From the NCBI GenBank assembly GCA_964016885.1, contig OZ024756.1, positions 6,882,001 through 6,946,000 on the forward strand: DNA of 64,000 nt. The letters are read 5' to 3'. The first letter of the stretch is position 1. The number at the start of each line of letters is the position of its first letter. This DNA is from Eledone cirrhosa (lineage: Eukaryota). Below the pieces are notes generated by a model. It made no database searches. It had not been told where the DNA came from and was given only the letters and a program-made list of their open reading frames with translations. Made by a program: the position numbers and the translations under genes. Shown in pieces: positions 243-54,483 of this stretch.

Positions 243-532
243 ATATATATATATATATATATATATATATATATATATAAATGAGAGGTATAGAGATTGT
301 TTTAGCAAGAAGCTAACGGCATTCTATAACATATATGCGACTATAACGTCAAGATGGGAAAAGTAGTTAACGAAAGATTTAGGAAAAATAACTCAGACTC
401 ATCTCAAAAGAGAATCAGGATATAAATTCATCCACAGAATTTAGTAAAATCCATGGAAAAATCTATAGACCTTTAACACATGATAAAATAAAGTTTGAAA
501 CACTCATCCTTCAATTTGGAATAACATCAAAT

Positions 533-613
533 GCTCTGTATAGTCTTAAAAGACTATTTCATGAAAACTTTCAGTGGAGATGGTCACGGTTGGATTTCAT
601 TCATCAGCAGAGC
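533..613 (-). ncRNA. Type I hammerhead ribozyme
   Basis: Minus strand: gctctg-CTGATGA-atgaaa...tttcat-GAAA-tagtct ttta agact-ATA-cagagc. 6-bp stem I, 6-bp stem II base, stable stem III, AUA cleavage triplet. Confidence 0.85.
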
Positions 614-1160
614 TCAACAGAAACCAGGGCTCTCACAGTAATATAATCCGAAAAAGGGAATTCTAAAACTGGCTAGTTCACCTTCATGTGTATTTATGAA
701 AAAGCACATGAGGAAAAAACGGGGCTAGTGACGTCAGGGTGGAAGTGAATGTTTATTTACAAGAAATAGCAGTCAAATACATTCTGAAAAAAACTCTACA
801 AAGGAGTTCAGCAAAATAGCAATAATTATCACAGTTTTTATGAAAAAAACCGGGATTAGTCACAGATAGTTTAAGCACTCTAGGAAAAGAATCCGAGTAT
901 AAATATAAATGAGAGGTATAGAGATTGTTTTAGCAAGAAGCTAACGGCATTCTATAACATATATGCGACTATAACGTCAAGATGGGAAAAGTAGTTAACG
1001 AAAGATTTAGGAAAAATAACTCAAACTCATCTCAAAAGAGAATCAGGATATAAATTCATCCACAGAATTGAGTAAAATCCATGGAAAAATCTATAGACCT
1101 TTAACTCATGATAAAATAAAGTTTGAAACACTTATCCTTCAATTTGGAATAACATCAAAT

Positions 1161-1241
1161 GCTCTGTATAGTCTTAAAAGACTATTTCATGAAAACTTTC
1201 AGTGGAAATGGTGACGGTTGGATTTCATTCATCAGCAGAGC
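1161..1241 (-). ncRNA. Type I hammerhead ribozyme (second tandem copy)
   Basis: Same core and stems as 533-613; the differences fall in the stem II insert. Confidence 0.85.
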
Positions 1242-1554
1242 TCAACAGAAATGTATATATAATATGATACGAAACAAAAGGAGTTGTGTGGTTACTAAAA
1301 ACAAGGTTTAGGATGGTGGTTTGGTCGGAACAAGAGGAGAAAAGAAGAAAGAATCCTTCGTCAGCTGTAAACCTGCGATCCAGATGTTTCGGCGCTTATT
1401 TACGAGACAAAAGGAAGGAAAAAGAGGGAAAAGGGGAAGAAGAAAAAAGGGGAATAGGTGGTGAGGAGAAAAGAAGAAAAAGAAAAGGGAAAAAGGAGAA
1501 TAAAACAGGTGAACAGATCCCATCGTATACATGTATGTATGTGTTTGTGTGTGT

Positions 1555-1641
1555 AGTAGTAGTAGTAGTAGTAGTAGTAGTAGTGGTAGTATTAGTAGTA
1601 GTAGTAGTAGTAGTAGTAGTAGTAGTAGTAGTAGTAGTAGT
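1555..1641. repeat. (TAG)n microsatellite
   Basis: Direct reading; explains the poly-V/poly-L ORFs. Confidence 0.95.
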
Positions 1642-1874
1642 GAAAGTGCAATTGGATAGCGTTCACAGGAGCTATGCCAAGATGAGTATTCGATGGTATT
1701 GGGGAGTAGAGTATCAATAATAATAATTAGGGAACAAATCAGTATATGATACAATACTGATTCCTTGTTCCCTAATTATTATTATCAGTTGAAGTATTCT
1801 TTGACTATGCAAGGAATACTTCAACTGATAAGGTATGTTCCTTGGCTATGCCAAAATTTATAAAACACACTTTG

Positions 1875-1936
1875 TATTTTATCTGATGAAAGCGTACCAA
1901 AGTTTTTGGTACCCTTGAAATATATATAATAGAATA
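1875..1936 (+). ncRNA. Type I hammerhead ribozyme, family B
   Basis: tattttat-CTGATGA-aagcgtacca aagttt ttggtaccctt-GAAA-tatat-ATA-atagaata; AATAAA overlaps the 3' end of stem I. Confidence 0.75.
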
Positions 1937-51079: not shown

Positions 51080-51266
51080 AGGGTGGTGAATTGGCAGTAA
51101 CGATAGAGGGTTGGATGCCATGCTTTCTAGCATAGTTACATCCCTTTACAGTCTGAGTTCAAATCCCACCGAGGTTAACTTTGCCTTTCATCCTTACGGG
51201 GTCAATAAAATAAAGTACCAGTAATGTACTGGTAATTGCTGGCCTTGTACCTAATGTAGAAGCAAT
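51080..51266 (+). mobile_element. SINE family 1
   Basis: Matches 41110-41299. Confidence 0.85.
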
Positions 51267-51806
51267 TAATATATATATATAGGTGCGGGTTTAATTTTAC
51301 AATCATATTTTATTTGTTTGACACGAATTACTTGGTCGTTTCTATGGCTGTGCGGATAATGGTTTAACCATCGTCTCAGTGTGTTTGGCCTTTTAATTTA
51401 TGTTGTAACTCTAGTTCATTAGCTTCTATCGAGCGCTTGCCACACATCTCGGAAGTTGCTTTTCGCTAATTTACAATAGCCGAAATACGATTCTCGCTAA
51501 TTTATATTTGTATATATATATATAAATGAAATATGTATACTTATATATATATATATATATATATATATATATATGAAATATGTATATGCTTATATATATA
51601 TATATATATATATATATATATATATATATATATATATAAATGAAATATGTATATGTTTATATATATATATATATATATATATATAAATGAAATATGTATA
51701 TGCTTATATATATATATATATACATATATATATATATATATACATATATATATATAAATAATTATATACATATATATATATATATATATATATATATATA
51801 TATATA

Positions 51807-52832
51807 TGAGAGACGTAAAATAAAAAAATTATAAAATTAACTTACTAAAATTTCACTCCAACTAATTAGTTTCTGAACGGGAATAAACATAGTTTCCGAA
51901 GAAACGTACGGAGAAGCCTTTCATCATCAGGGAAGTCTATTCTCAGCTAAGTTTCCAGGCAATATGTGGACACAGGGAACTTATACAAAAATAATTCAGT
52001 GGATGGAAAAAAGCAAAGCGTGGACTAAATTCCAAGCAATTGAAAAAATCACTGCCTACTGCGTCGGTGGCAAATTCAAAAGAATCAGTCACGTGACATC
52101 GAGGTCAATCAGTGAAGGGTGGTTTGTTAAGAAGACAGCAGCCGGACCGCTACTATAGTAGCAGTTTTGGCCAATTTTTGCTCGACAAAATAATTTGAAG
52201 ATAATTATAAAGAATTAATATATCTAGTAACATATATATACACAGATGCATACTTATGCTAGCAAATATATAGGTTTTGTCTTAGTAACTTTGAGGTTCA
52301 ATGCATGGGGATGCAGAACAATAATATGAGAGACGTAAAATAAGAAAATTATAAAATTAACTTACTTACTAAAATTTCACTCCAACTAATTAGTTTCTTC
52401 ACTGATTGACCTCGATGTCACGTGACTGATTCTTTTGAATTTGCCACCGACGCAGTATGCAGTGATTTTTTTCAATGGCTTGGAATTTAGTCCACGCTTT
52501 GTTTTTTTTCCATCCACTGAATTATTTTTGTATAAGTTCCCTGTGTCCACGTATTGCCTGGAAACTTAGCTGAGAATAGACTTGCCTGATGACGAAAGGC
52601 TTCTCCGTACGTTTCTTCGGAAACTATGTTTATTCCCTTTCAGAAACTAATTAGTTGGAGTGAAATTTTAGTAAGTAAGGTAATTTTATAATTTTCTTAT
52701 TTTACGTCTATCATATTATTGTTCTGCATCCCCATGCATTGAACCACAAAGTTACTAAGACAAAACCTATATATTTGCTAGCATAAGTATGCATATATGT
52801 ATATATATGTTACTAGATATATTAATTCTTTA
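51807..52832. mobile_element. 520-nt tandem unit plus inverted arm with hammerhead-like core
   Basis: tgagagacgtaaaataa at 51807 and 52327; 52397-52832 is inverted. CTGATGA-cgaa...ttcg-GAAAC tat GTT at 52586-52630, with no stem I evident. Confidence 0.7.
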
Positions 52833-52939
52833 TATATATATATATATATATATATATATATATATATATATATATATATATATATATATAAAATAAAGTT
52901 AAATGAAAGTCAAATGATTAAAATTTAGCTTCGTTTATT

Positions 52940-52994
52940 ACTGCTATATATATTTCAGTGACAGCCATCTTTGGCTGTGACCTCTTCAGGCAGT
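52940..52994 (-). ncRNA. Type I hammerhead ribozyme
   Basis: actgc-CTGAAGA-ggtcacagcca aaga tggctgtcact-GAAA tatat ATA-gcagt, followed at once by AATAAA and, ~45 nt on, (TA)n. Confidence 0.85.
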
Positions 52995-54129
52995 TTGAAT
53001 TAGTATGGTATAGACAAGTACATATGTTGTTTAGGTGTATGATATTGTCAATACTCTGATATGCCCAGTTCCTTGTTGGGTTGTTAATTCACTGGGGAAC
53101 TGGAGTCATATGAATTCAAACAAACGAATTTTCGTGTCACAGGTCCCCTTCTCCTCTCATTGGTCAGTTATTAGAACATTCTTCATTCTAAGTGTTGTTA
53201 TTGTTGGAGTTAGCTTAAAAATTGATAAAATGGTAGAAAGGACAAGGTGTTGAAGGAACAAAATATCAAAAAATGTGTCAAACTTCCCATTGTTCAGTTC
53301 TGAGAGCATTCCTCAGTCAGAAGTCTATAGAATTCTTTCTGGGGTGAGGCTCCCTGTAGTGTTTTTGCCTGCTATTGTTCAGTACATTTGACCTCCACCA
53401 TTATTTTGGTAGTGTTGTTGTTGTAGTGGTCAGCTTATATCTTGCTGCTGCTAACAATTTAGAAGTATACTGGGGTGTTGGTATACAACCAACATAAACT
53501 CAAAATCTATATATATATATATATATATATATATATATAATAAGTTGACGGAACTAGCATGGGTTTCACTGCTAGTACCTGTTACACCTCAGTGTACTCA
53601 ATAGGTAATATTAAATAAATTCCCAGAGTATACACATAGTTATTCGCTTCCATTCAACACACGTAAATGGGTACACCATAAATAAATCTATACCCGTACT
53701 CGAGTTTGGGTCACTCCTTATGCAGCAATGGAGTGCACACCATCAACTGTCTGCGTTTTTTATGCAATATTGCACAATCGACGAGTATGTCTTCATCAGT
53801 GGGTCTCGTCTAATCAATAACCAATCGATCGACAGAATTCGATTCCAGCCTGTGCCGTCTACGGATAAATAACTGTTCCAAACAGGTCACTAAGAAAAGG
53901 GATATATATTGAGGTTGTAAGGGAATCATTCTGTCATTACCATAACTGAAGCCCGGTGGGCTTTTGACTCCAGAGTCAGGCCCGCTCGATACAGATTGAA
54001 CCTTGAGCAGATCAATCGCGAAACGCGCGTCCCATCTCAATGAATGTTATGAAAATTCAACACCTCGCCCATATTATTATTAATACTATTATTATTACAA
54101 TATATATATATATGTGTATATATATATAC

Positions 54130-54483
54130 AAAAGTTTTATTTAAAATTGTTGGGTTACAACAAGTAAATATTTTATAACTGATATAAAGCACTCGACAAG
54201 TTTTTGGAGTAGATATACGATATTAAACAAATGGAAACTATATTTATAAAACCATATTTATTTCATTATACATATTTCAGGGACACCATATTAAAAATAT
54301 GGCATGCCTTCGTCAGATAAAATACAATATATAAACAGTTTTATAAATAATTTTGACGTACCCTATTATAAGCGACCATTATATTTGGAAGGCATGCCAT
54401 ATTTTTAATATGGTATCCCTGAAATATGTATAATGAAATAAATATGGTTTTATAAATATAGTTTCCATTTGTTTAATATCGTA
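54130..54483. mobile_element. Fold-back family B element with hammerhead at 54259-54324 (minus)
   Basis: tattttat-CTGACGA-aggcatgccatattt ttaatatggtgtccct-GAAA tatgt ATA-atgaaata; inverted arm at 54389-54483. Confidence 0.8.

What the first reader, a model, noticed from the sequence alone, without database searches (positions are those of the whole stretch)
279..54483. Dense swarm of hammerhead-ribozyme mini-elements inserted in (TA)n microsatellites
Seen: about 20 type I hammerhead motifs (CUGANGA / GAAA / NUH with paired stems) at 533, 1161, 1875, 3730, 6515, 6695, 7761, 13173, 14340, 15682, 23636, 23838, 28097, 38079, 38481, 40704, 42253, 43760, 43907, 52940 and 54259. They come from roughly ten sequence-unrelated families, most bounded by (TA)n and often followed by AATAAA. 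Established: Penelope-like element pLTRs and animal non-LTR retrozymes carry minimal type I hammerheads with palindromic stem III. Inference: this genome hosts a diverse PLE-mobilised system of non-coding ribozyme elements that colonise AT microsatellites, at about one ribozyme per 3 kb here. Standard annotation would dismiss this as low-complexity DNA.
Basis: partly seen in the sequence, partly recalled or inferred. Interest (0 to 1): 0.92.

Follow-up and report, generated by a model that had tools for sequence, protein, structure and literature searches.

The report
Penelope retroelement ends and hammerhead retrozymes
The self-cutting RNA motifs are real and very abundant, but they belong to a known kind of jumping gene: about half are the cut-off tail ends of protein-coding Penelope-like elements and most of the rest are short non-coding passengers that land in the same TA repeats.

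Summary
Observation confirmed: a structural scan finds 18 type I hammerheads in the window against 0.03 in shuffles; all 21 listed sites are hammerhead-like, two with the known U3-A8 core. Interpretation partly right. 11 of 21 sites are 5'-truncated 3' ends of RT + GIY-YIG Penelope-like elements (PLEs) with Hydra-clade motifs; 8 of 21 belong to four closed, ORF-free units (about 315, 425, 628, 765 nt), i.e. non-LTR retrozymes; 2 are unassigned. A fifth unit (525 nt) and a Neptune-type PLE end were missed. Genome-wide, seven family patterns give 89,562 exact matches; the window is about 5.6 times denser than a 200-kb sample. Hammerheads in PLE ends, TA targeting, inverted pairs, tails and retrozymes are all published, and the scan noted such ends on other DNA. 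Extras: retrozymes show PLE-type junctions (fixed 3' end on TA, variable 5' end, 99 of 100 copies run through the cut site), and a covarying hairpin 6-10 nt beyond the proximal junction is shared by Hydra-type PLEs and two retrozymes, a candidate signal for the mobilising enzyme. Cleavage and expression untested.

The parts
280..1251 (-). Family A retrozyme, 1.55 copies of a 628-nt ORF-free unit; hammerhead cores at 1235 and 607, predicted cuts after 1167 and 539; stable 7-8 bp stem III; 3' end on the TA run 240-279; tail hairpin at 898
1856..2087 (+). Family B-type PLE 3' end with tail; core at 1883
3700..3819 (+). Family M, unassigned; hammerhead with U4C at 3733 and a stem I mismatch; start approximate
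4524..6305 (-).
6475..6887 (.). Family B head-to-head pair; cores 6571(-) and 6703(+); tail with hairpin (6807) only on the + copy
7686..8068 (+). Family E retrozyme, 5'-truncated copy of a 755-765-nt unit; core 7765 with a 97-nt branched stem II
12733..13490 (+). Family D retrozyme (420-430-nt unit) with inverted 5' piece; core 13177; ends approximate
14214..15380 (-). Family C: 3' UTR, hammerhead (14400) and tail of a Hydra-type PLE
15359..15869 (+). Family F: 3' end of a Hydra-type PLE with 1.86-kb 3' UTR; core 15685
23337..24034 (.). Family C inverted remnant without core (23337-23566) next to a family B head-to-head pair, cores 23692(-) and 23846(+, stem II mismatch)
27924..28420 (-). Family J retrozyme (311-321-nt unit) with inverted piece; U3-A8 core at 28136; ends approximate
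37956..38793 (.). Family D head-to-head pair, cores 38114(-) and 38486(+)
40601..40885 (.). Family I head-to-head pair (cores 40753(-), 40797(+, changed cut triplet)); 3' end of a Hydra-type PLE
42013..42500 (+). Family D copy, core 42258; ends approximate
43651..43827 (-). Family K, unassigned; U3-A8 core at 43793; 12,169 exact matches genome-wide
43860..44174 (.). Family C-like 3' end (core 43968, -) with inverted tail piece
51808..52834 (.).
52891..53510 (-). Family H: 3' end of a Hydra-type PLE; core 52989
54126..54484 (.). Family B-type head-to-head pair, core 54316(-); 86% like the 3' end of the ORF-bearing copy L152

Best explanation
The window is a pile-up of insertions made by Penelope-like retroelement (PLE) proteins into (TA)n. 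Shown: several autonomous RT + GIY-YIG families (five Hydra-type, one Neptune-type) carry a minimal type I hammerhead near the 3' end; most copies are 5'-truncated, often head-to-head, so only the hammerhead-bearing end is left. Shown: five ORF-free units (A, D, E, G, J) are dispersed as 0.3 to 6 copies of a closed unit with the same junction pattern; these are non-LTR retrozymes. Inferred: the GIY-YIG domain nicks a TA run; RT starts inside the RNA at one of two fixed sites (with or without a 70-120-nt tail) and stops at random; for retrozymes the template is an uncut multimer or a religated circle, since copies run through the cut site and wrap into the next unit. Inferred: a small hairpin just past the proximal start site is the signal the Hydra-type protein recognises, and retrozymes A and G carry it to be mobilised in trans. 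Inferred from literature: most of these hammerheads cut only as dimers or with protein help; family A should cut as a monomer.
For: Motif excess. ORF-to-hammerhead continuity: C in L085, L086, L088, L093, L094, L097, L149, L154, L161; H in L134, L137, L139, L140, L142, L146, L147, L151, L156-L159; B-type in L152; Neptune in L063-L066, L068; F in L153/L132 with more than 1,600 nt upstream shared by 6 other loci (L121, L126, L127, L128, L130, L131; L131 may be a segmental copy of L132); I in L207. L150 ORF: atlas hits at 0.94-0.96 with GIY-YIG/RVT_1 clusters, BLASTP E 5e-10 to the Neptune ORF, which hits RVT_1 and GIY-YIG weakly. Closed units: same-strand periods 628-630 (A), 423-428 (D), 524-526 (G), 311 (J), about 755-765 (E); none of 21 A copies shares upstream sequence outside the unit. 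A junction: of the first 100 of 1,456 matches, 69 end on a TA run, 1 on a TA-like run, 27 continue into the next unit, 3 are unrelated (my tally). 99 of the first 100 of 964 run through the cut site (my tally). Two end positions in B, C, F, G, H, I. Hairpin 6-10 nt past the proximal junction in A 6/6, B 3/3, C 12/14, G 11/11, H 4/6, I 9/10 read-through copies, with three different paired stems; motif 18 in the window against 0.36 shuffled, 9 against 2.4 in the 200-kb sample. All parallel published PLE features.
Against: No cleavage or RNA data. Pfam does not recognise 6 of the 8 ORF pieces scanned, including both family C ORFs. Only the 40 best DNA hits per family were scored and 12-20 loci of +/-1.5 kb seen, so an autonomous parent of a 'closed' unit may exist. 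Family B is linked to an ORF through one locus of a sister subfamily (85-93% alike), not the 6571/6703/23692 subfamily. The ORF-to-hammerhead path of I and of some C copies crosses internal TA runs. The hairpin was not found in D (0/7), the 467-nt relative (0/3), J (0/8), K (0/7), Neptune (0/2), at the right place in E (0/5), and F failed the scripted pattern (0/9; seen only by eye); it was defined after seeing A, B, C and one core-less family. The generic genome-wide pattern gave 29,268 matches against an uneven control of 2,606 + 13,329. No empty-site alleles were seen.
Confidence: 0.85

Rival explanations
1. All families, the closed units included, are only pLTRs of autonomous PLEs whose ORFs I did not reach; tandem units arose by local DNA duplication, not by their own retrotransposition.
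For: Sampling was limited to top hits and short flanks; Li et al. 2026 find retrozymes related to pLTRs and propose local tandem growth.
Against: Arrays are dispersed over many chromosomes, each with the same 3' junction on TA and a random 5' end inside the unit; partial first units wrap past the 3' junction into unit sequence, which no ORF-bearing parent explains.
Confidence: 0.1
2. The elements are as described but the hammerheads are passengers: cleavage is not needed for copying and is weak or absent for most families.
For: 99 of 100 A copies span the cut site; in the anole PLE, ribozyme mutants insert normally and uncut RNA is the main template; 8 of 9 Xenopus retrozyme dimers did not cleave; the Neptune core lacks adjacent stem I pairing.
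Against: Stem I changes keep pairing in family D, U3-A8 replaces C3-G8 family-wide in K (96 of first 100), and stem III palindromes differ in sequence between families: signs of selection on the fold. Compatible with the main reading.
Confidence: 0.3
3. The TA runs are made or extended during insertion (slippage on the element's internal UA-rich tract) rather than being pre-existing targets.
For: The A junction falls on an internal TA-like tract with 4-5 nt of shared sequence.
Against: TA runs flank both ends of many copies; PLE endonuclease prefers AT-rich DNA in vitro; Hydra families are reported to insert in (TA)n.
Confidence: 0.1
4. Chance matches in AT-rich, palindromic low-complexity DNA.
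For: The bare 7-nt core alone occurs 16-19 times in shuffles; the generic pattern has a high control.
Against: Structured motif 18 against 0.03; family patterns with controls of 0 to 22.
Confidence: 0.01

Closest known systems
Hydra clade of C-terminal EN+ Penelope-like elements (Craig et al. 2021, PMC8557442)
   Same: DKT in place of DKG, CxCX5C linker, no CCHH, CxxC and CxH around the conserved E and N, canonical hammerhead near the 3' end, (TA)n insertions, 5' truncation, tandem/inverted structure, tail at one end.
   Different: Here at least five families with tens of thousands of ends; long 3' UTRs (0.95-1.9 kb) make elements longer than the 'generally <3 kb' described; tails are 70-120 nt, not 30-40; shared tail hairpin not mentioned in the parts read. 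No tree against reference Hydra proteins was built.
Non-LTR retrozymes of animals (Cervera and de la Pena 2020, PMC7229834; Li, Clavereau and Pollet 2026, bioRxiv 10.64898/2026.07.22.740005)
   Same: ORF-free, AT-rich tandem units with one type I hammerhead each, monomers to multimers, co-occurring with PLEs; unit lengths within the 51-972 bp range of the preprint.
   Different: Mostly minimal or atypical hammerheads (U3-A8, long stem II, 8-bp stem III); explicit PLE-type junctions (TA target, inverted 5' piece, two start sites); circular RNA and cleavage not shown here.
Minimal hammerheads of metazoan PLEs (Cervera and de la Pena 2014, PMC4209133)
   Same: Short palindromic stem III, extra base at the start of stem II, single and head-to-head copies 100-700 bp apart, U3-A8 variant.
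   Different: Count and density are higher: at least 89,562 family-pattern matches in 3.0 Gb against about 2,000-9,000 per genome reported; methods differ.
Neptune clade PLEs and the Poseidon element of Anolis (Frangieh et al. 2024, PMC11167929)
   Same: Element at 4524-6305 has DKG, CX4CxxC linker and CCHH-type endonuclease; two internal RT start sites separated by a tail match the anole mechanism.
   Different: The anole start lies in an AC-rich stem-loop 111-118 nt into the ORF; here the candidate signal is a different hairpin in the tail, shared across families.

Membership tests
Type I hammerhead ribozyme | Core CUGANGA / GAAA / UH with stems I-III in type I order | tested here: met
   18 hits against 0.03; 17 of the 21 listed sites exact, 2 U3-A8, 2 mutated
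Type I hammerhead ribozyme | Self-cleavage after position 17 | not testable with these tools
   no assay; family A folds into the three-stem form as its minimum-energy structure, z -2.0
EN+ Penelope-like element (families B, C, F, H, I, N) | Single ORF with RT and C-terminal GIY-YIG upstream of the hammerhead | tested here: met
   RT part seen for C, H, I-parent and N, only the endonuclease end for B and F parents
EN+ Penelope-like element (families B, C, F, H, I, N) | 5' truncation, partial tandem or inverted structure, optional tail | tested here: met
Hydra clade | DKT, CxCX5C linker, CCHH absent, CxxC/CxH around E and N | tested here: met
   read from the ORFs printed against the text; DKT seen in C and H parents, CxCX5C in B, C, F, H parents, CxCX4C in the I parent
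Hydra clade | RWK motif | tested here: inconclusive
   the C parent reads RW followed by I; N-termini of the others not seen
Hydra clade | Phylogenetic placement with reference Hydra RTs | not tested
   no reference set fetched; atlas top hit is mostly cnidarian on 2 records
Neptune clade (element 4524-6305) | DKG, CX2-5CxxC linker, CCHH endonuclease | tested here: met
   ORFs of L063, L064; no tree, so Nematis is not excluded formally
Non-LTR retrozyme (A, D, E, G, J) | Tandem ORF-free unit with a type I hammerhead in each unit | tested here: met
   E rests on one wrap-around locus and three same-strand pairs
Non-LTR retrozyme (A, D, E, G, J) | No autonomous parent carrying the same unit | tested here: inconclusive
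   none among 21 A, 28 D, 16 E, 22 G, 10 J copies seen; genome not exhausted
Non-LTR retrozyme (A, D, E, G, J) | Expression as self-cleaved linear and circular RNA | not testable with these tools
   needs RNA reads or northern blots
LTR retrozyme (plant type) | Type III hammerhead in LTRs, 4-bp target duplication | tested here: not met
   type I topology, TA junctions, no LTR pairs
Naiad/Chlamys PLEs | N-terminal endonuclease, no canonical hammerhead | tested here: not met
   endonuclease is C-terminal and hammerheads are present

The most novel reading that the evidence does not exclude
A short covarying hairpin (RYUC paired with GARY, 12-32 nt apart), placed 6-10 nt beyond the proximal reverse-transcription start, is the RNA signal that Hydra-clade PLE proteins recognise; ORF-free retrozymes A and G (and core-less families in the window) carry it and are copied by those proteins, while D-type retrozymes use another PLE clade. 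This would name the mobilising enzyme and its cis-signal for animal retrozymes, in a genome holding on the order of 100,000 hammerheads, perhaps the densest yet counted.
Probability: 0.4. Interest if true: 0.62.

Novelty: new member of a known kind. Interest (0 to 1): 0.38.

Why it matters
The kind is known, so this is mainly a large new example. It matters in two ways. The papers read leave open which autonomous element copies animal retrozymes and by what signal; this genome offers young autonomous Hydra-type families next to young retrozymes (family A 98-99% identical) with a shared candidate signal, which makes that question directly testable in vitro. And it supplies many natural hammerhead variants (U3-A8 in 12,000 copies, long stem II, monomer-competent stem III) in a lineage where the searches found no ribozyme report.

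Tried and rejected
Rfam scan: swamped by microsatellite matches to miRNA models, one sub-threshold hammerhead row shown. Pfam on window ORF pieces found only an L1/Tx1-type RT at 57233-59602, unrelated. ORF upstream of family A in L038/L148: separated by a TA run and belongs to family I's parent, so rejected as A's parent. Endonuclease upstream of J in L205: J starts at an inverted junction, so a nested insertion. Pile-up of 5' ends at the ribozyme cut site (linear cut monomer as template): not seen, 1 of 100. Generic genome-wide pattern: control too high and uneven to use. RNA evidence: no RNA holder listed; three contig runs laid show only that variants of family A occur in those data. MAFFT did not align the tail hairpin stems in register, so no pair count was run on it. 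Other core-only sites (11232, 16885, 23167, 27756, 36810, 49945, 53799, 60307) failed the structural scan; some look like decayed hammerheads by eye. No earlier notes on this genome. Lunse et al. (PMC5785218) is not held. Left open because not run: null-controlled TA distance and poly(A)-hexamer count for the window; direct link of the 6571/6703/23692 subfamily to an ORF; parents of K and M; long loci for G and J.
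Full report
Setting. The window is G000:C17:6,882,001-6,946,000 of a 2,996-Mb assembly in 1,796 contigs, AT-rich and full of (TA)n. From recalled repeat features I take it for an octopus-like cephalopod; no call names the organism and nothing below depends on it.

1. The observation. A scan for type I hammerheads (exact core, paired stems I-III) gave 13 hits under strict rules, with shuffled means of 0.01-0.04, and 18 hits when a long stem II or a 10.1-11.1 mismatch was allowed, against 0.03, max 1, in 100 block shuffles. 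Seventeen of the 21 listed sites are among the 18. Sites 28097 and 43760 have U3-A8 in place of C3-G8; this is a family trait (K: 96 of the first 100 of 12,169 matches with positions 3-8 left free; J: U3 in 100 of the first 100 of 246 with A8 fixed by the pattern) and a variant already reported in schistosome PLEs. Site 23838 has a stem II mismatch and 3730 has U4C with a broken stem I. Ten of 18 stem III regions are perfect palindromes. In family D stem I differs between window copies yet stays paired. Rfam does not call any at threshold among the rows shown.

2. Scale. Twenty 10-kb stretches at round coordinates on 16 chromosomes held 10 hits (0.2 shuffled; one looks like chance), 5 of them from families of this window: about 50 per Mb, against 281 per Mb here, so the window is about 5.6-fold enriched. 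Extrapolation gives roughly 150,000 (my Poisson range 72,000-276,000). Exact family patterns give 58,184 (B/C type, control 3), 12,169 (K), 11,471 (D), 6,218 (G), 964 (A), 310 (E) and 246 (J): 89,562 in all, at least 30 per Mb. Five of the seven patterns cover half the motif, so not all matches are intact ribozymes; F, H, I, N and families absent from the window are not counted. Published counts: about 2,000-9,000 minimal motifs in schistosome, coelacanth and Xenopus, over 6,000 in a coral and up to 120,000 retrozymes in the axolotl (28 Gb). Methods differ, so 'densest known' is a possibility, not a result.

3. Eleven sites are ends of coding elements. At 4524-6305 the window itself holds a truncated PLE whose last 47 codons match 821-987-aa ORFs elsewhere with weak RVT_1 and GIY-YIG hits and Neptune-type motifs; its core at 4644 was not listed. 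A translated search of all fetched loci with six endonuclease domains shows family C hammerheads 920-990 nt behind an endonuclease in 9 loci, H about 1,210 nt behind in 11, and a B-type end 1,352 nt behind in one (L152; 85-93% like window copies at 1872, 3958-4257 and 54218). F lies 1.86 kb behind an ORF in L153/L132, and six other loci share over 1,600 nt of that upstream. I closes the element of L207, whose UTR holds a second, I-like core and internal TA runs. These ORFs show the Hydra diagnostics of Craig et al.: DKT, CxCX5C (CxCX4C in the I parent), no CCHH. Pfam misses them, but the L150 ORF aligns with the Neptune RT at E 5e-10 and its atlas neighbours carry GIY-YIG and RVT_1. So B (6 sites), C (2), F, H and I, 11 of 21, are 5'-truncated PLE ends; B rests on one sister-subfamily locus.

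4. Eight sites are closed non-coding units. Family A is a 628-630-nt unit, 98-99% identical among the best hits, in arrays of up to six; none of 21 distinct copies shares upstream sequence outside the unit. D (423-428 nt), G (524-526), J (311-321) and E (755-765) behave alike; a 467-nt relative of D turned up in passing. Two apparent ORF links (A in L148, J in L205) proved to be neighbouring or nested insertions. These fit non-LTR retrozymes. K and M stay unassigned.

5. How they are inserted. The A 3' junction is fixed 328 nt past the core in 15 of 16 copies that end on a TA run within the stretch examined. Among the first 100 of 1,456 genome matches (control 22), 69 end on TA, one on a TA-like run, 27 continue into the next unit and 3 are unrelated (tallied by eye). 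The junction sits on an internal TA-like tract, not at the ribozyme cut; 99 of the first 100 copies run through the cut site, so the template was an uncut multimer or a religated circle, which DNA cannot tell apart. B, C, F, G, H and I each have two end positions 70-120 nt apart; N and A show one. This is the tail that Frangieh et al. traced to two internal RT start sites, in a system where the endonuclease cuts AT-rich DNA and ribozyme mutants still insert. Head-to-head pairs, tails and TA bias are described PLE traits.

6. One thing not found in print. Six to ten bases past the proximal junction, read-through copies of A (6/6), B (3/3), C (12/14), G (11/11), H (4/6) and I (9/10) carry a 4-bp stem RYUC/GARY with three paired versions and 12-32 nt between the arms. 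F shows it by eye but failed the scripted pattern (0/9); D, the 467-nt unit, J, K and N score 0 and E has none at that offset. The commonest version occurs 18 times in the window (0.36 shuffled) and 9 times in the 200-kb sample (2.4 shuffled), mostly 50-100 nt before a TA run and often in families with no core left. It was defined after the fact and MAFFT did not align it. I read it as a candidate protein-binding or start-setting signal of Hydra-type elements, borrowed by A and G; probability about 0.4. Searches for prior reports: searches found none on this hairpin or on cephalopod hammerheads.

7. What I read. Li et al. 2026 preprint: parts 1-3 of 5. Craig 2021: passages and section 11. Cervera 2020: passages and Discussion. 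Cervera 2014: parts 1-2 of 4. Frangieh 2024: parts 1-2 of 4. Bonar 2026 (PMC13282606): part 1 of 3 and a term search, no mention of ribozymes. Weinberg 2019 review (PMC6765202): passages. Lunse 2017: not held, known only from that review. No supplement, Repbase or Dfam entry was examined; they may already list these families or motifs.

8. Verdict. Real, non-random, mechanistically coherent, and of a known kind: PLE 3' ends plus PLE-dependent retrozymes in TA repeats. Cleavage, expression and trans-mobilisation are inferred, not shown. Interest 0.38, for the scale, the junction evidence and the testable hairpin.

Noticed in passing
window 57233-59605 (-), with 56681-57232 and 59606-60193: Near-intact L1/Tx1-type LINE: 790-aa frame with AP endonuclease and RT Pfam hits.
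   Followed up: partly
window 76-240, 7290-7456, 30525-30660, 40897-41091, 2088-2140: Very common head-to-head family with PLE-type tail and the tail hairpin but no hammerhead in the pieces seen; also in 5 of the 20 random stretches. Parent unknown.
   Followed up: partly
window 13700-13983, 17316-17670, 23040-23240, 24040-24100, 28445-28560, 29684-29886, 32124-33078, 36770-37114, 41417-41571: More TA-flanked inverted pairs and tails that look like PLE or retrozyme ends truncated before the ribozyme.
   Followed up: no
window 16885(+), 27756(+), 36810(+), 49945(+), 23167(+): Core sequences with partial stems, probably decayed hammerheads of further families.
   Followed up: no
window 4644(-); L014-L026, L063-L068: The Neptune-type core has stems II and III but no stem I pairing with adjacent sequence in any copy seen; it may pair only in the tandem or spliced context.
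   Followed up: partly
L207:1830-3800: The parent of family I has a 1.9-kb TG/TA-rich 3' UTR with two diverged hammerheads about 1.5 kb apart.
   Followed up: partly
L067:100-600, L069:6440-7750, L141, L150:1928: A 467-nt tandem retrozyme with 7-bp stem I, weakly related to family D; not in the window.
   Followed up: partly
window 2870-3050 and about 15 other places; 2347-2569, 25788-26003, 29413-29629: Two abundant SINE-like families, the first usually between TAA runs.
   Followed up: no
window 19362-21593 and 62449-64000: Minisatellites of 62-nt period.
   Followed up: no
window 35880-36640, 39050-39800, 40050-40410, 46400-47450, 53540-54070: Fragments of other LINE-type elements (RT thumb and restriction-like endonuclease pieces by eye; no Pfam hit at 0.1 except a weak DUF).
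   Followed up: no
window 10172-10692 and 12216-12746: 520-nt inverted pair, 91% alike, 1.5 kb apart; not examined.
   Followed up: no
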